Source: a virus
Taxonomy: Duplodnaviria; Heunggongvirae; Uroviricota; Caudoviricetes
Virus record (IMG/VR): IMGVR_UViG_2925908680_000007
Span: 3,851 to 67,850 of that record
Reading direction: 5' to 3' (one strand)
DNA: 64,000 nucleotides
Position numbers: made by a program. Every line of letters begins with the position of its first letter. The stretch's first letter is position 1. Of the stretch, positions 33,001-42,000 are shown one piece after another.

Positions 33001-36000
33001 ATGCAGGGAGAAAATAACAGCTTTGCCGTTGACGACTTCGATTTTCAGGTATGGGGAAGTTGGGACTGTAGCCATGATGGCAGCCTCCGATAACAGTGAA
33101 TTACCTTCACCACCGGAAACGCCAATTTCGCTGGTGGTGAACTGAACGGGGTTGGCGTAACCGGCGTTATCGGAAACCGGCGCACCTTTCGGTGCCCCCG
33201 CCCAGCCCACCATAATTTGGGTGTGCGCAGACGCAGACGATAAAAAAGACGCTGGTGCGTCATATATCGCCGATAACATTTCCAGGACGCCAATCCCGGC
33301 ACCCGCTTTATAAGGTGCAGAGACAGTGTAACGTCCCGAAATTGCAGAATCAATATTTAGGCTTGAAACATTCATATGCTTACTGGTATTTTTACTAACG
33401 CAAATGTTCTTGGCTGTTACTGGCTTACTTCTTTGTGAGGTTGCCTTTACTAACGTTGAGCGAGCCGGGTCACTACCCGGCTTTTTTTCACCGCTGCCAA
33501 CCAATAACCTGAAATAACCCCATTTTCGGGTGATACCAGCGAGTCCCTCGCGGTTCTGCTTCCTCCATAACCCGATAAAAAGCAGCCATAAACGGTTCCA
33601 CAGCAACAATTGCGCGACGTGACAACAATCCGTCCGGCGTCATGAACTCATGGGTGTCTGTAGGAATTTGATAGGCGTTCACCAGATTGCGGCATTTATC
33701 ATCTGACAAACCGGTTTTTGCTTTCAGTTGGCGATATCCGGCATAGCCCTCACGAATGGTACCCCTTTTGATTTGCTCAACTGTTTCGGCGACGTGGCTG
33801 ACTTTTTCTTCCACCTGAGTGATCCGTTTCTGCTGACGAACGGCTTCAAGAGCCATCGCAGCAACCATTTCAATTTCGCTCATTGGCTTACGGATCTGTT
33901 CTTCCAGTTCACGCCAGCGATCTACCAGGCGAGCAGTGAATTCAGGGCAGAGCTGTGCGACGACAATGATGCTGTCGCGCTTACCTTGTTCTCCTTCAAA
34001 CAGGTAATGCTCATATTGAACTTTAAAACCTAAGTTATTGATTTTCTCGGAAACAGCCATTGGCGGTTTCCGGATGATGTTTTTAGCAACCAGGCGTTCG
34101 ATACTACGTTTAACATCTGAGTGCTGACTACCCACCAGCTCTGCGATCTCAACGCTGGTCATGGATGCTTTGTCGTTAAAAATTGCGGTGTTCACTGCCA
34201 TCTCCTTACGGATAAATTCTTTTAAGATTCCGCACATTCGTACTTATTGGTGCCGAACCTTCCTTCAGTTATCCTTTTGATCCCTATAAACAAAAGAGCC
34301 AAAGGAGGTTCGACATGTCACAAAAAAACGATATTCCTGTTTTTCCTATTACAGCCTGGCAGGCTGGACCATTGCCCGGTTATGGTGCGCTAGCATTAAA
34401 ATTCCAGTACCTGGCTTCCCCTATGCAACCACTGGATTCAGCACAAGAAACTCAGTTCTTCGCGCTTACTCCCGAAATGGCTGAGACTTTGATATCCGAT
34501 CTGCGCCGACATATTGAGACGCTGAAAAAATCCGGTATTCACAGCCCACAAGAAAACAGGCATTAATCGAAAAAACGGTTGCCACATAATTTCTTGAAAA
34601 GCGTCGCGCACTGGCGCTTTTCATTTCTCTACGATCAACAAGCATGCACCTCACTTCTCCTCCCCCGTGTGCGCTAAGCTTGGGTGTGTATATGGAATGT
34701 TCGGATCCAGATGGCAGAGAATGGCAACATCCTCCGGAACGCCCCGCGTTTTCCACTTTCCAACTCCCTGACTACCACGAGGCTTTCCTTTCTTTGGAAA
34801 CCTACGGCCAATAGCGGCATTGGTTTTAAATTGAGTTTTTAATATTTCATAAAGGGTCATTCTTTAGCCTCACACCGGATACTCTGTTATCCAAGAATGT
34901 TAAACGCGAGAATCCAAAGTATCAAGAGATTCTGTTACTTTAGTATCAACAGCCATGAAAGGAGAAGAAAAATGAAGTCTTTAGGTGAACGCCTCATCAA
35001 CGCACGACAAAAAGCTGGGTTAACGCAAGATGCGTTGGCTAAAAAAGCAGGGGTCACCAGAGTTGCAATCAGTAAAGCCGAGCAAGGCCTTACAAAAAGT
35101 TTCAACGGTGACACCCTTTTTAAAGTCGCAGCTGCACTGCAGTGTTCACCGCAGTGGCTTCAGAACGGAGATGAAAAAGATAAGCATTGGGAAAATAATG
35201 TTAAGAGCTGCCCACAGAGAGACACAGCACACTCTTACCCTGTAATTAACTGGGTTCAGGCAGGATTATTCGCAACTGCTGGTGATGACTACAACATGTA
35301 TGATCAGGATAACTGGAGGCATTCTGTAAAATACGCAGGTGAGAGGGGGTTCTGGCTGGAAGTGCACGGAGACTCAATGACTTCGCCCGTAGGAATAACA
35401 TTTCCTGAAGGAATGTCGATCCTTGTCAACCCAGATAAAGAAGTTTTTTCAGGGTGTTACGTCATCGCCAGAAAAAAATCCACCAATGAAGCAACATTCA
35501 AAAAATATATTTCTGAAATGGGAAAGGCGTTTCTAAAGCCCCTTAATCCACAATATCCAATCATAGAAATGGACAATGATTGCGAAATAGTAGGTGTTGT
35601 AGTTGATGCCAGGTGGGATATTTTCTGACCAGACTCAAAACACAAAAAGAAACCAAAGTATCAAAAATCACTTGCCACACCTTGATACCTTAGTTACCAT
35701 AAAACAAAGTTCGTAACTGAGGTATCATCTCATGATCAATAAAGCTACAACTCTTGACTGTCTTGAAGAACTGAAAAACCTCGGCAGTCTCATTACACTA
35801 ATAGCCAAAGCAACGCCAGATGCTACGCTCTCTGGCGATATCGAGTCATGCGCAGGACTGGCATGGGATATGACAAATAGCATATCCAGAAAGCTATCGT
35901 CAGCAATGCTTTTACAGAACAAAAATTCTGCAATCAACAACCGTCTTCGCACCCAACGCGAGGCCTGCGGCTTAACAACCGCCGAACTCGCCAGGCTGCT

Positions 36001-39000: not shown

Positions 39001-42000
39001 TGTTTGAACGGCTCGATCACCAGGAATACCGACAAATTCTGGCAGAAACAGAACAGGAAACTCATCTGAAAAAATTACGGGCCATGAAAAGGAAATAAAG
39101 AATGAATAAAGCGTTTGAGCTATGGGTACGCCAGCGTTACGGCAATCGCTATGACCTGACGCGAGATGTTGACGGTTTCTACTGTCGTGAAATTGTGAAA
39201 CGAATGTTTGAAGTGTGGTGCCACTGCCGTGGGCTGAATGTTGTATGAGGTGAACTGTGGGGCTGGATTGCGTACCTATATCAACCTACTGCCGCAACGC
39301 AGGAGAAACGGTTGATGCCGTTAACAAACGGATACAAAGAGGAATATGGAAAGAAGGGGTACATGTATTAAAAGTCGACGGAGTTAAAGAACGTTGGGTC
39401 GACTTAATGGAGATTACAAAATGGGCAAGAAAGAACAAGGATCACTATCTCTCCCTAGAGGAGTAACTATTCGCCAGCATAAAACTGGTAGCACTCTGGT
39501 TATCACTTTTACATATAAAGGGGTTCTGTGTCGGGAGCCCCTCTCCAGAATGGAAGTAAACGCGCGCGGTGTGAAGTACGCCGAGCGTCTGCTGGGAGAA
39601 ATAAAAAATCAGATTATCGATGGTACCTTCGAATATGCAAAATACTTCCCCAACTCCCAAAAGCTGGAGTTGTTCGGGGGAGTGAAAAAAAACAAAAATA
39701 TAAAATCTTACCTGGATGAATACCTGATTATCTGCCAGAACCGTAACCTGTCACCATCGACAATTAGAGGTTATGAAAAATGCCTGTCGGCGCTGTCAGC
39801 ATTGCATAAATTTCATGTATCAGAACTGACACCTGCAGTACTAAAAAACTGGATCGCCAGCAGAAAAACAAAACTGAAAACTATCCGCAATAATCTTTCA
39901 TTCCTGCGCAGCGCCATAGATGAAGCGGTGACCGATGGTTTGTTAACAATAAATCCTGTCACGCTAGTCAGCGCCAGCCGGTATCACGTATTGGACAACA
40001 CACCAGGCAGTGATGATTACGAGGTCGATCCTTTTACACCAGCGGAGACGGCAGCAATCTATAACGCCTGTCATTACCCGGAATGGCGAAATCTGTTTCG
40101 CTTTGCCTTTAATACAGGACTGCGCAGCTCAGAATTGTGCGCGTTGCGCTGGATGGATATAGACTTTATCGGCAACACCGCGCATGTTCAGACTGCAAGC
40201 GTAGTCGGGGTAATCAAAAGCACCAAAACAAAAGCCGGCACCCGCAAAGTGCAACTGAACAGCGAAGCGCTGGCGGCTCTTCAGGCACAAAAGCCCTACA
40301 CGGCGCTAAAGAGCGACTTCATATTCAGCGATCCGAAAACTCGCGCTCCTTGGGCAAACGCAGATGCGATCCGAAAAAAAGCCTGGGTACCAACCCTTAA
40401 AAAAGCTGGTGTACGCTATCGCAATCCGTACCAGACACGCCACACGTTCGCCACTCGGCACATTAGCCAGGGCGTTAACCTGTTCTGGCTTGCTGGTCAG
40501 ATGGGGCATAAAGGACCGGAAATGCTGTTCAGACATTACGGCTCTTACCTTGCAGAATACGATGGAAAAACGGCGATTTCTGCAACCCCGTAACGGCAAA
40601 ATATTTCAAAATGTTGTACAGAATCAGGACGTTACCGGGACAACAATATGTACGTAAAATGCACATAATTCATTGTTTGAAAAAATAAATCGTTCATATT
40701 CAATAAATTGGATTAATCACGATCACGGGTTCAACTCCCGCCAGCTCCACCACTTGCTCTTCCGGATACGTCCGGAGAAATCCTGAAAGCCCGCATGGCA
40801 CAAGCTCTGCGGGCTTTTTTGTGTCTACCGTTGTCCGAGGATATCCAGCTAAATCCAGTGATTATTGGTATACGTTTAGGTATACGGTAGGATGTATACC
40901 TAAACGCGTATACCAATTCATGAAGGAACGGCTAAAGTGGCAAGAACGACACGCCCCCTGACCAACACAGAAGTTCTGCGCGCTAAAGCGTTAGAAAAGG
41001 ATCTAACGTTGCATGATGGCGATGGTCTTTTTCTGCTCGTTAAAACGAACGGTAAGAAGTTATGGCGTTTCCGTTATCAACGTCCAACAACAAAGCAGCG
41101 AACAATGATGGGGCTAGGTGCATTTCCCGCCCTCTCACTTGCTGACGCCCGGCGGTTAAGAGCGGATTACCTTTCCTTGCTAGCCAACGGAATTGACCCG
41201 CAAATTCAAGCTGAGATTGTAGAGGAACAGCAACAAATTGCACTGGACAGTATTTTTTCAACAGTCGCCGCTAACTGGTTCCAGCTTAAAAGCAAAAGCG
41301 TTACCCCTGATTACGCGAAAGACATTTGGCGTTCACTAGAAAAAGATGTATTCCCTGCCATCGGTGAGATTCCAGTTCAGCAAATCAAAGCCCGAATGCT
41401 TGTTGAAGCCCTAGAGCCAATCAAAGCACGTGGGGCGCTAGAGACGGTACGTCGTCTGGTGCAGCGCATTAATGAGATAATGATTTATGCCGTAAACACA
41501 GGTCTGATTGATGCCAATCCAGCATCAGGTATTGGGATGGCCTTTGAGAAACCTAAAAAGCAAAACATGCTTACTCTCCGGCCAGAAGAATTACCGAAGC
41601 TGATGCGTTCTTTGATTATGTCTAATCTGTCCGTTCCGACACGTTGTCTTATTGAGTGGCAACTACTGACCCTTGTGCGCCCTTCTGAAGCCTCCGGTAC
41701 AAGGTGGGCAGAGATCGATCTCGCAGCAAAGGTCTGGACGATTCCACCCGAACGGATGAAGGCCAAGCGTGAGCACATTGTTCCTCTATCTTCTCAGGCA
41801 TTAGAAATTCTGGAAGTAATGAAACCAATCAGTGCTCATCGTGAACATGTTTTTCCCAGTAGAAATGACCCGAAACAGTCAATGAATAGCCAAACTGCTA
41901 ATGCAGCACTCAAACGCATTGGTTATGGTGGGAAATTAGTTGCTCATGGGTTACGATCCATCGCAAGTACTGCACTCAATGAAGCCGGATTTAATCCTGA

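What the first reader, a model, noticed from the sequence alone, without database searches (positions are those of the whole stretch)
35732..39247. Block of uncharacterised genes between the repressor and xis-int
Where lambda carries N, recombination and kil genes, this phage has an HTH protein (176 aa) and several ORFs of unknown function (67, 193, 137, 80 and about 48 aa) in addition to the SPFH pair. I see no recognisable recombinase or exonuclease. Regions next to the repressor often carry exclusion genes.
Basis: inference. Interest (0 to 1): 0.4.

Follow-up and report, generated by a model that had tools for sequence, protein, structure and literature searches.

The report
Phage early-left accessory gene operon
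This is the ordinary early-left operon of a phiP27-type prophage of E. coli: real, conserved small phage genes of mostly unknown function, including a membrane-scaffold (SPFH) gene pair found in hundreds of phages, with no recombination, antitermination or known exclusion genes.

Summary
The block is 100% identical to E. coli cq9 and 96.7% identical to genes L10-L03 of the published Stx2e phage phiP27. Every ORF falls in an existing PHROG family, and all are under purifying selection.

Corrections:
- A conserved 37-aa gene (36341-36454) was missed.
- The "67-aa" ORF is probably 62 aa.
- The 176-aa HTH protein is a deletion chimera of phiP27 L10 and L08.
- DUF5406 is frameshifted only in its last codons.

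No ORF matches a recombinase, exonuclease, N-type antiterminator or any PADLOC defence model.

The block is a mosaic. The HTH, 37-, 62-, 193- and 48-aa genes recur in Citrobacter and Pantoea prophages. The rest is exchangeable cargo:
- The SPFH lipoprotein with its 2-TM partner equals N4 gp19/gp20 and occurs in 736 phage records, many virulent.
- DUF5406.
- DUF4222, the RgdR family.

Repressor half-sites and a promoter-like site lie between cI and the block. The block is therefore most likely a cI-repressed PL operon, not a lysogen-expressed exclusion locus. The biochemical functions remain unknown; ORF193 and DUF5406 models have no fold relatives. Low interest.

The parts
34972..35628 (+). 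cI-type repressor (HTH_3 + Peptidase_S24). It is context and lies just upstream of the block.
   Evidence: Pfam Peptidase_S24 1e-22 and HTH_3 1e-14; phrog_4 2e-53. PGAP calls it a LexA family protein.
35650..35731 (+). Putative OL/PL region. It holds repressor half-sites RGTATCA at 35657, 35689 (- strand) and 35721, and the 12-mer CCAAAGTATCAA shared with the OR region (34914). A promoter-like site TTGCCA-17-TACCAT lies at 35672-35700. A 15-bp inverted repeat at 35683-35697 / 35713-35727 covers the -10 and the SD (GAGG, 35717-35720) of the HTH gene.
   Evidence: Five of the window's 24 RGTATCA sites (both strands) fall in the two ~110-bp regions flanking cI, against ~0.08 expected. Promoter scan. 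Hairpin dG -20 kcal/mol, z -3.7, 0 of 200 shuffles. No terminator between cI and the HTH gene. That this region acts as operator and promoter is inferred.
35732..36262 (+). HTH regulator, 176 aa. It has an N-terminal ~65-aa helical domain plus one Xre-type HTH (aa 70-130). It is a chimeric C-terminal variant of a family whose full-length form (218-230 aa) has two tandem HTH domains.
   Evidence: HTH_3 4e-11; phrog_4739 1e-94. Alignments with phiP27 L10 and L08 and with 218-230-aa relatives. A protein of the same architecture follows the repressor in a Citrobacter prophage.
36264..36298 (+). AT-rich 11-bp hairpin followed by GGUUUUAU, directly after the HTH stop. It is a weak terminator-like element at the junction that varies between phiP27, SE11 and this prophage.
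   Evidence: Fold dG -11.3, z -2.0. Variable junction. Function not tested.
36341..36454 (+). An AGGAG lies 8 nt upstream.
   Evidence: Intact in PPompW and PhiR49_2 at 73-76% nucleotide identity; substitutions 8/3/16 and 9/4/17 by codon position; dN/dS 0.06-0.08. Homologues in Citrobacter (61% identity) and Pantoea. Sequence.
36459..36647 (+). Its stop overlaps the start of ORF193.
   Evidence: phrog_340 3e-24. Start inferred from the SE11 stop codon and PGAP. A homologue exists in the Citrobacter prophage.
36644..37225 (+). 193-aa protein, phrog_1515, a distant DUF5375 relative. It belongs to an orphan family of enterobacterial prophage early-left operons, and its predicted fold has no known relative.
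37233..37257 (+). 7-bp AT-rich hairpin followed by a U6 run, after the ORF193 stop. It is a weak terminator-like element and marks a cassette boundary.
   Evidence: Fold dG -4.9, z -1.9. Sequence. The Stx1 phages and PhiR49_2 share only the DNA up to about this point.
37271..37378 (+). Possible 35-aa single-TM peptide gene upstream of the SPFH pair. Uncertain.
   Evidence: ORF intact in phiP27, SE11 and PPompW, but substitutions 3/3/2 show no codon bias, and there is no PHROG hit.
37402..37590 (+). 62-aa two-TM membrane protein, partner of the SPFH lipoprotein. The ATGA overlap with the SPFH start suggests translational coupling. Conserved motif P-x-L-(I/V)-S-x-x-D-(T/S).
   Evidence: phrog_1130 3e-23. 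A small protein with this motif, in my manual comparison, sits upstream of the SPFH gene in Moo19 (gp30, annotated as N4 gp19-like), SSE121 (gp211, with one short ORF between it and the SPFH gene), Pseudomonas vB_Pae_U2 and P1-like RCS47, where it is unannotated.
37587..38414 (+). SPFH/Band-7 lipoprotein, 275 aa. It has a lipobox LVGC (Cys20), an SPFH domain at 22-208, an Ala/Glu-rich coiled-coil-like segment and a conserved C-terminal tail.
   Evidence: Band_7 6e-31 (108 bits vs 23.6 cutoff); phrog_200 1e-114. Nearest solved relative is HflK, E 2e-4. tblastn hits in 736 phage records. Cys20 is invariant in 5 diverse phages. dN/dS 0.01-0.05.
38422..38440 (+). GC-rich 7-bp hairpin after the SPFH stop, without a U-run. 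Possibly an mRNA stabiliser or processing site.
   Evidence: Fold dG -17.1, z -2.6. Function unknown.
38455..38868 (+). DUF5406 protein, 137 aa. The normal form is 123 aa. A frameshift after residue 117 leaves the domain intact and makes the ORF overlap the next gene.
38856..39098 (+). DUF4222 protein, 80 aa. It is a distant member of the RgdR family of small prophage regulators and has QGQ where RgdR has RGD.
   Evidence: DUF4222 2e-16 (59.6 bits vs 27). RgdR/ECs1581 carries DUF4222 at 2e-23. Pairwise similarity is weak, and RGD aligns to QGQ. RgdR function from PMC3378721 and PMC10877973.
39102..39248 (+). 48-aa protein (phrog_3871) immediately upstream of xis. Conserved next to the integration module across genera.
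   Evidence: phrog_3871 5e-36. 79% identity in the Citrobacter prophage, in the integrase-proximal end of the operon ~180 bp from int (which is on the opposite strand there); 62% in Serratia; 92% in PhiR49_2, directly upstream of xis.
39257..40593 (+). xis (39257-39466) and tyrosine integrase (39421-40593). This is the distal end of the operon, and the module differs from phiP27's.
   Evidence: phrog_2917 excisionase 2e-40. PGAP integrase. Homology to phiP27 stops at 39251.

Best explanation
The block is the early-left (PL-type) operon of a phiP27-family temperate phage integrated in an E. coli chromosome.

Most likely it is transcribed rightward from a cI-controlled promoter in the 103-bp gap after the repressor gene, through to xis-int. 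It would then be expressed after infection or induction and be largely silent in the lysogen.

It is a mosaic of small, independently assorting cassettes rather than one system.

(i) Lineage-conserved genes:
- An Xre-type DNA-binding regulator as the first gene.
- A chain of closely spaced or overlapping 37-, 62- and 193-aa proteins.
- A 48-aa protein tied to xis-int.
These presumably act on phage development or host takeover.

(ii) Exchangeable cargo:
- A two-TM protein plus a periplasmic SPFH lipoprotein. Like other SPFH proteins, this pair would assemble an oligomeric membrane scaffold. It is used by virulent and temperate phages alike early in infection.
- A DUF5406 protein.
- A DUF4222 (RgdR-family) small regulator.

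This phage has no N-type antiterminator and no general recombination module of its own.

Shown: gene content, homology, mosaicism, purifying selection, and operator-like motif enrichment.
Inferred: promoter use, repression in the lysogen, and every biochemical role.
For: - Identity to phiP27 L10-L03 is 96.7% over 98% of the block. Matches occur in 947 of 5426 E. coli genomes, 88 of them near full-length.
- The order is that of a lambda-type left arm: cro(-)/OR/cI(+)/gap/block/xis/int, all on one strand.
- The 12-mer CCAAAGTATCAA and the RGTATCA half-sites are shared between the OR region and the gap after cI. Five of 24 window sites lie in ~220 bp. A promoter-like site overlaps them.
- All ORFs are in PHROG families and under purifying selection.
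- Mosaicism:
  - PhiR49_2 keeps the HTH, 37-, 62-, 193-, DUF4222 and 48-aa genes but replaces the SPFH pair and DUF5406 with Ea22/EaA-type genes.
  - The Stx1 phages share only the 37/62/193 segment.
  - The Citrobacter prophage keeps the HTH, 37-, 62-, 193- and 48-aa genes; the Pantoea prophage shows clear homologues only of the 37- and 193-aa genes.
- The SPFH pair corresponds to N4 gp19/gp20, as annotated for its Moo19 homologues. SPFH homologues occur in 736 phage records, including Schitoviridae, Vequintavirinae, Staphylococcus myoviruses, a P1-like phage and haloviruses.
- There are no recombinase, nuclease, N or PADLOC hits.
Against: - Promoter and operators are consensus and motif matches only; no transcript data were available.
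- No intrinsic terminator separates cI from the block. Read-through from the maintenance promoter could therefore express at least the first genes in the lysogen.
- Weak terminator-like hairpins follow the HTH gene and ORF193, yet no antiterminator was found. It is thus unclear how far a PL transcript runs.
- No function is established for any protein. ORF193 and DUF5406 have no fold relatives.
- The RgdR precedent shows that a DUF4222 protein can act from a resident prophage (PMC3378721).
Confidence: 0.6

Rival explanations
1. The block, or part of it, is a lysogen-expressed exclusion or defence locus. It would be co-transcribed with the repressor as rexAB is in lambda, or expressed from its own promoters, and would protect the lysogen against other phages.
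For: - It sits directly downstream of cI on the same strand with no terminator between them.
- G+C of 42-49% is lower than in the structural region.
- It encodes membrane proteins (2-TM + lipoprotein), as many superinfection-exclusion systems do.
- The ORF193 allele is much more diverged from phiP27 than its neighbours, dS 0.29 against 0.03-0.11.
Against: - No PADLOC model matches apart from generic HTH.
- No literature links SPFH to anti-phage activity.
- Operator half-sites and a promoter-like site separate cI from the block.
- A 15-bp hairpin would occlude the ribosome-binding site of the first gene in any read-through transcript.
- The SPFH pair is abundant in obligately virulent phages.
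- The conserved core genes travel with early-left operons, not with defence hotspots.
Confidence: 0.15
2. The SPFH lipoprotein and its 2-TM partner form an HflK/C-like cage. The cage would act on the host protease FtsH or another inner-membrane client. It would fill the role that CIII plays in lambda's left operon, stabilising a CII-like factor or other phage proteins and thereby setting the lysis-lysogeny or lysis-timing outcome.
For: - The nearest solved relative is HflK, and there are weak HflC/HflK NCBIfam hits.
- The position is the left operon, where lambda has cIII.
- A temperate Pseudomonas phage has the pair in the same place downstream of cI.
- Phage genome papers have proposed this idea without testing it (PMC10269572).
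Against: - HflK/HflC equivalog cutoffs are missed by a wide margin, 25 bits against 134-159.
- The anchor is a lipid, not a TM helix. The +2 residue after the lipidated Cys is not conserved (D, Y, E, S), so inner- versus outer-membrane location is uncertain.
- The pair is common in virulent phages that make no lysogeny decision.
- The Pasteurella prophage SPFH protein PM0222 was reported in outer-membrane vesicles (PMC9872710).
Confidence: 0.12
3. The block is decaying, functionless cargo of a defective prophage.
For: - The HTH gene is a deletion chimera.
- DUF5406 is frameshifted.
- The locus after the HTH gene varies between strains.
Against: - Both lesions spare the recognised domains.
- dN/dS is 0.01-0.3 for nearly every gene.
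- The same genes are kept in inducible phages: phiP27, and PhiR49_2 from ECOR13.
- The prophage retains repressor, replication, Q, structural and integration modules.
Confidence: 0.05

Closest known systems
Genes L10-L03 of Stx2e phage phiP27 (NC_003356)
   Same: 96.7% nucleotide identity over 98% of the block. The gene order is the same, between the repressor L11 and xis/int.
   Different: About 830 bp (L09, most of L08) are missing here, which fuses the L10 HTH gene to the L08 tail. ORF193 is a diverged allele at 90% identity. The xis-int module is a different one. phiP27's own annotation calls all these genes unknown and L05 a 'putative serine protease/lipoprotein'.
Coliphage N4 gp19/gp20-type cassette (phrog_1130 + phrog_200), as in Shigella virus Moo19 gp30/gp31, Salmonella phage SSE121 gp211/gp209 and P1-like RCS47
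   Same: A small two-TM protein with the P-x-L-(I/V)-S-x-x-D-(T/S) motif lies upstream of a lipobox-bearing SPFH protein. SPFH identity is 47-92%, and in four of the five loci compared the two genes directly abut or overlap.
   Different: Those phages are mostly virulent and carry the pair among early or middle genes. Here it sits in a temperate phage's left operon. No member of the cassette has a demonstrated function. A 2026 paper still calls its presence in phages unexplained (PMC13239085).
E. coli HflK/HflC (SPFH cage around FtsH)
   Same: Band_7/SPFH domain followed by a coiled-coil-like segment and a conserved C-terminal tail. The protein faces the periplasm. HflK is the best PDB sequence match.
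   Different: Scores are far below the HflK/HflC equivalog cutoffs. There is a single SPFH gene rather than a K/C pair. The anchor is lipid instead of an N-terminal TM helix. The partner is a 62-aa 2-TM protein and not an NfeD protein.
RgdR (ECs1581) of cryptic prophage CP-933C/Sp7, activator of LEE type III secretion and repressor of motility
   Same: A small prophage-encoded protein with a DUF4222 domain (PMC3378721).
   Different: It is 80 aa against 99 aa. Pairwise similarity is only marginal. QGQ aligns with the RGD motif needed for T3S activation. The genomic context differs, since RgdR sits in a P4-like remnant upstream of a primase.
Lambda PL operon (N, ral, sieB, cIII, kil, gam-bet-exo, xis, int) and the cI-rexA-rexB unit
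   Same: Position and orientation between the repressor/OL and xis-int. The operon is filled with many small accessory genes.
   Different: There is no N or nut. There is no Red, RecET or Erf recombinase. Nothing is homologous to rexAB or sieB. The first gene is an Xre-type HTH regulator.

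Membership tests
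phiP27-family early-left block (L10-L03) | Near-identical DNA with the same gene order between repressor and xis-int | tested here: met
   megablast 96.7% identity, 98% coverage; collinear apart from one ~830-bp indel.
Lambda-type PL operon | Located downstream of cI on the same strand, running to xis-int, behind an operator-controlled promoter | tested here: inconclusive
   The position and strand requirement is met. Operator-like half-sites are enriched and a 9/12 promoter match is present. No transcript evidence exists.
Lambda-type PL operon | N-type antiterminator plus nut (boxA/boxB) site | tested here: not met
   No N-like hit in Pfam, PHROGs or NCBIfam. BoxA-like motif count is 42 against 45 expected, with none near the promoter.
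Lambda-type PL operon | General recombination module (Red, RecET or Erf, with exonuclease) | tested here: not met
   No such family hit for any ORF of the block or of the early-right operon. ORF193 and DUF5406 models have no nuclease or annealase fold match.
Known phage exclusion / anti-phage defence systems | Protein matches a model of a known or candidate defence system | tested here: not met
   PADLOC gave only generic HTH hits for the regulator and nothing for the other seven proteins.
Known phage exclusion / anti-phage defence systems | Expressed in the lysogen and protective against other phages | not testable with these tools
   Needs RNA-seq of the lysogen and plaque assays. Sequence context argues weakly against it.
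SPFH / Band 7 superfamily | SPFH domain above the Pfam gathering score | tested here: met
   PF01145, 108.3 bits against a cutoff of 23.6, residues 22-208.
SPFH / Band 7 superfamily | Membrane anchoring | tested here: met
   Signal peptide with lipobox LVGC. The Cys is invariant in five diverse phage homologues. Lipidation itself is not shown.
SPFH-NfeD operon | Adjacent partner gene encoding an NfeD-domain protein | tested here: not met
   The upstream 62-aa partner has no Pfam or NCBIfam NfeD hit. It is a different conserved 2-TM family, phrog_1130.
HflK / HflC | Score above the NCBIfam equivalog cutoffs | tested here: not met
   25.5 bits against 134.4 (HflC), and 23.4 against 159.4 (HflK).
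RgdR family (DUF4222) | DUF4222 domain | tested here: met
   PF13973, 59.6 bits against a cutoff of 27. RgdR itself scores 82 bits.
RgdR family (DUF4222) | RGD motif required for T3S activation | tested here: not met
   BLASTP aligns RgdR R20-G-D with Q7-G-Q of the window protein. Motif requirement from PMC3378721.
Xre-type HTH transcription regulators | HTH_3 domain | tested here: met
   PF01381, 43.2 bits against 23, residues 72-126. DNA binding is not tested.

The most novel reading that the evidence does not exclude
Three unproven readings remain open.

(a) The 2-TM + SPFH-lipoprotein pair is an early-expressed envelope device shared by more than 700 phages. It could be a periplasmic-face scaffold that blocks superinfecting DNA entry, shields the membrane from abortive-infection effectors, or controls a membrane protease.

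(b) The lineage-conserved 37/62/193-aa chain, whose 193-aa member has a confidently predicted fold with no relative in PDB or BFVD, is a new host-takeover or anti-defence module.

(c) The hairpin that buries the ribosome-binding site of the first gene makes its translation depend on which promoter made the RNA. Read-through RNA from the maintenance promoter would be silent, and PL RNA would be active. Structurally analogous hairpins precede the equivalent gene in prophages of two other immunity types.
Probability: 0.2. Interest if true: 0.55.

Novelty: already known. Interest (0 to 1): 0.2.

Why it matters
As it stands, little changes. The block is a previously sequenced accessory region of a known phage family, and the analysis gives no new function.

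Its value is as a catalogue:
- It separates lineage-conserved early genes from exchangeable cargo.
- It flags a missed 37-aa gene.
- It shows that the SPFH pair is a pan-phage cassette rather than a lysogeny or exclusion gene.
- It identifies two protein families, ORF193 and DUF5406, with confident models but no known fold relatives.

The SPFH cassette is the part most worth an experiment. It occurs in many therapeutic-candidate virulent phages, and nobody knows why.

Tried and rejected
- **Family scans.** Pfam, PHROGs, NCBIfam and PADLOC scans of all ORFs gave no recombinase, exonuclease, antiterminator or defence assignment.
- **PDB sequence search.** ORF193, DUF5406 and DUF4222 returned nothing meaningful.
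- **Exhaustive profile search for ORF193.** It found 134 representatives and no informative domain fusions.
- **Is DUF5406 part of the SPFH cassette?** Rejected. In Pseudomonas and Serratia prophages it occurs without an SPFH gene.
- **Is the 62-aa ORF related to the ParE-like or P22_AR_C-like neighbours of ORF193 in Citrobacter and Pantoea?** No similarity.
- **Is the DUF4222 protein an RgdR orthologue?** Rejected. The relationship is only at domain level, and the RGD motif is absent.
- **nut/boxA search.** Chance level.
- **Rfam.** No RNA family inside the block.
- **Literature.** Searches for SPFH with anti-phage or superinfection exclusion, and for DUF5406, found nothing relevant.
- **Operator architecture.** A simple palindromic operator could not be derived. 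Only half-site enrichment is claimed.

Full report
**1. What is there**

The window is part of the chromosome of E. coli strain cq9, a pig isolate. The block is 100% identical to NZ_CP031546.

The surrounding layout is that of a lambda-type left arm:
- a small cro-like gene on the minus strand (34651-34860);
- a divergent control region;
- a LexA/S24-type repressor (34972-35628);
- a 103-bp gap;
- the block (35732-39248);
- xis (39257-39466) and a tyrosine integrase (39421-40593).

**2. It is a known piece of DNA**

megablast against phage genomes gives 96.7% identity over 98% of the block to genes L10-L03 of the Stx2e phage phiP27. About 87% identity is found to a prophage (PPompW) that carries Stx2a phages. 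Among 5426 complete E. coli genomes, 947 have some match and 88 have a near full-length one. PGAP and the phage records annotate all of it as hypothetical, HTH, SPFH/lipoprotein, DUF5406 or DUF4222.

**3. The ORFs are real genes**

Each has a PHROG family hit at E 1e-23 to 1e-115. NG86 dN/dS values against relatives are:

| Gene | dN/dS |
|---|---|
| SPFH | 0.01-0.05 |
| 37-aa ORF | 0.06-0.08 |
| HTH | 0.00-0.20 |
| ORF193 | 0.22 |
| DUF4222 | 0.00-0.17 |
| 48-aa ORF | 0.19-0.26 |
| DUF5406 (few substitutions) | 0.28-0.58 |

**4. Corrections to the gene list**

- *A missed 37-aa gene (36341-36454).* It has an AGGAG Shine-Dalgarno sequence. It is intact at 73-76% nucleotide identity, with a strong third-position bias. 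It has homologues in Citrobacter (61% identity) and Pantoea prophages.
- *The 67-aa ORF most likely starts at 36459 (62 aa).* SE11 has a stop codon in the upstream extension.
- *A 35-aa hydrophobic ORF (37271-37378)* is intact in relatives, but coding is not proven.
- *The HTH protein is a chimera.* Residues 1-134 equal phiP27 L10. The tail (LNFACEYAK.AAEKELAQ) equals the C-terminus of phiP27 L08. About 830 bp present in phiP27 are absent between window 36117 and 36198.
- *The wider HTH family has many C-terminal variants.* The full-length form (218-230 aa) carries two tandem HTH domains. phiP27 L10 itself looks like a deletion between the two repeated CDPMWLLTG motifs. SE11 has yet another variant at this junction.
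- *DUF5406 differs from the usual 123-aa form only after residue 117*.

**5. No standard left-operon functions and no known defence**

- None of the proteins hits a recombinase, annealase, exonuclease, Gam/Kil/CIII-type or N-type family.
- BoxA-like motifs are at chance frequency.
- The early-right operon holds cro-like, Rha/Ant-like, ash-like, replication-initiator, DnaC-like, DnaB and Q genes, and also has no recombinase.
- PADLOC gives only generic HTH hits for the regulator and nothing for the rest.

**6. Regulation (inferred)**

The 12-mer CCAAAGTATCAA occurs both in the cro/cI divergent region (34914) and in the gap after cI (35653). Five of the window's 24 RGTATCA sites, counted on both strands, fall in these two ~110-bp regions. 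About 0.08 would be expected. A sigma-70-like site, TTGCCA-17-TACCAT (35672-35700), overlaps them. I read this as OL/PL, so the block would be repressed by cI in the lysogen.

No intrinsic terminator separates cI from the block. A 15-bp inverted repeat (35683-35697 / 35713-35727; dG -20 kcal/mol, z -3.7) would pair the Shine-Dalgarno sequence of the HTH gene in any RNA that includes both arms. A transcript starting about 7 nt after the -10 would contain only the 3' arm.

Analogous hairpins burying the ribosome-binding site of the equivalent gene occur in a Citrobacter prophage (14-bp stem, z -7.3) and in PhiR49_2. PhiR49_2 additionally has a clear terminator after cI. Whether these palindromes act as RNA structures or as DNA operators cannot be decided here.

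Weak AT-rich hairpins with U-runs follow the HTH gene and ORF193. A GC-rich hairpin without a U-run follows the SPFH gene.

**7. Mosaic structure**

- PhiR49_2 keeps the HTH, L08, 37-, 62-, 193-, DUF4222 and 48-aa genes. It has Ea22/EaA-type genes where this phage has the SPFH pair and DUF5406.
- The Stx1 phages share only the 37/62/193 segment.
- A Citrobacter prophage has, downstream of its repressor:
  - an HTH protein of the same architecture (40% identity in the HTH domain);
  - homologues of the 37-, 62- and 193-aa proteins, with other genes interspersed;
  - the 48-aa protein near int (79% identity).
- Pantoea prophages have the 37- and 193-aa genes in the same operon position.

The HTH, 37-, 62-, 193- and 48-aa genes therefore form a lineage-conserved core of these left operons. 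The SPFH pair, DUF5406 and DUF4222 are exchangeable cargo.

**8. The SPFH pair**

The 275-aa protein has a lipobox (LVGC), a Band_7 domain (108 bits), an Ala/Glu-rich segment and a conserved tail. HflK is the nearest solved relative, at E 2e-4, and the HflK/HflC equivalog cutoffs are missed by far.

tblastn finds homologues in 736 phage records. These include N4-like Schitoviridae, Vequintavirinae, Staphylococcus myoviruses, jumbo phages, a P1-like phage, temperate Pseudomonas phages and haloarchaeal viruses. In Moo19 the pair is annotated as similar to N4 gp19/gp20.

A small two-TM protein with the motif P-x-L-(I/V)-S-x-x-D-(T/S), by my manual comparison, precedes the SPFH gene in all five loci compared. 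It directly abuts or overlaps the SPFH gene in four of them, and is separated by one short ORF in SSE121. Here the two genes overlap by ATGA. The partner has no NfeD domain.

The lipidated Cys is invariant, but the +2 residue is not (D, Y, E, S). The target membrane is therefore uncertain.

The literature offers only speculation, and one 2026 paper says the reason for its presence in phages "remains unclear" (PMC13239085; also PMC10269572). A prophage SPFH protein of Pasteurella was reported as a virulence factor found in OMVs (PMC9872710).

The wide presence in virulent phages argues for a role during lytic infection rather than a lysogen-specific exclusion role.

**9. The other proteins**

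- *DUF4222.* This is the domain of RgdR (ECs1581), a prophage-encoded activator of LEE1/T3S and repressor of motility in EHEC (PMC3378721, PMC10877973). The window protein is only distantly related and has QGQ in place of the functionally required RGD.

**10. Verdict**

The genes are indeed uncharacterised and lack recombination or antitermination functions. There is no positive evidence for exclusion, and several features argue against a lysogen-expressed defence locus.

The best description is an ordinary, already sequenced phiP27-type early-left accessory operon. It is interesting mainly for the unexplained pan-phage SPFH cassette and for two families without a known fold.

Noticed in passing
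window 26185-28292 (+): Three ORFs (350, 130 and 221 aa) with G+C of 32-36% in a ~52% prophage. They lie on the strand opposite to the late genes, between the Q antiterminator (28323-28670, -) and a DNA methylase with tRNA-Arg/Met (24224-25576). phiP27 carries stx2e in this slot. They have no Pfam and no PADLOC hits. This is a better candidate for a lysogen-expressed moron or defence system than the block under review.
   Followed up: partly
window 33130-33318 (-) and 48073-48336 (+): Rfam finds a C4 antisense RNA plus isrK twice. One copy lies in the prophage between the ash-like regulator and the Rha/Ant-like gene. The other lies in the neighbouring P4-like satellite next to an icd-like gene. 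So a P1/P7-type antisense immunity module coexists with a cI/LexA-type repressor.
   Followed up: no
window 40937-~48500: A P4-like satellite sits directly after the prophage integrase. It has a P4-type integrase (40937-42136), a DUF2326 protein matching PADLOC PDC-M68B/LmuB-like models, an ABC-three-component 'middle component', and psu and ogr/delta genes. Helper-type prophage and satellite are integrated in tandem.
   Followed up: no
window 35683-35727; L012 2425-2470; L016 ~3680-3745: Strong hairpins bury the Shine-Dalgarno sequence of the first gene after the repressor. They occur in three prophages of different immunity types (z -3.7 and -7.3, and -4.6 for the PhiR49_2 region as a whole). 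In the window the putative -10 lies in the 5' arm, so only read-through RNA would form the hairpin; by my reading of the sequence the Citrobacter prophage has the same arrangement. They could equally be DNA operators.
   Followed up: partly
window 36117-36198 versus phiP27 (L001 4489-5399) and SE11 (L007 2107-2800): The junction after the HTH gene is a hotspot of rearrangement. This prophage, SE11 and phiP27 carry 0, ~470 and ~830 extra bp there. The HTH family shows at least six different C-terminal endings, including forms with a second HTH domain.
   Followed up: yes
window 39251: Homology to phiP27 ends exactly between the 48-aa gene and xis. This prophage uses a different xis-int module (210-nt xis, 390-aa int) from phiP27 and SE11.
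   Followed up: partly
L006 2784-3020 (Escherichia phage RCS47, NC_042128 77292-77528): An unannotated 78-aa ORF upstream of the RCS47 SPFH lipoprotein carries the same 2-TM partner motif (LPNMISSNST). The partner gene is missing from that RefSeq annotation.
   Followed up: yes
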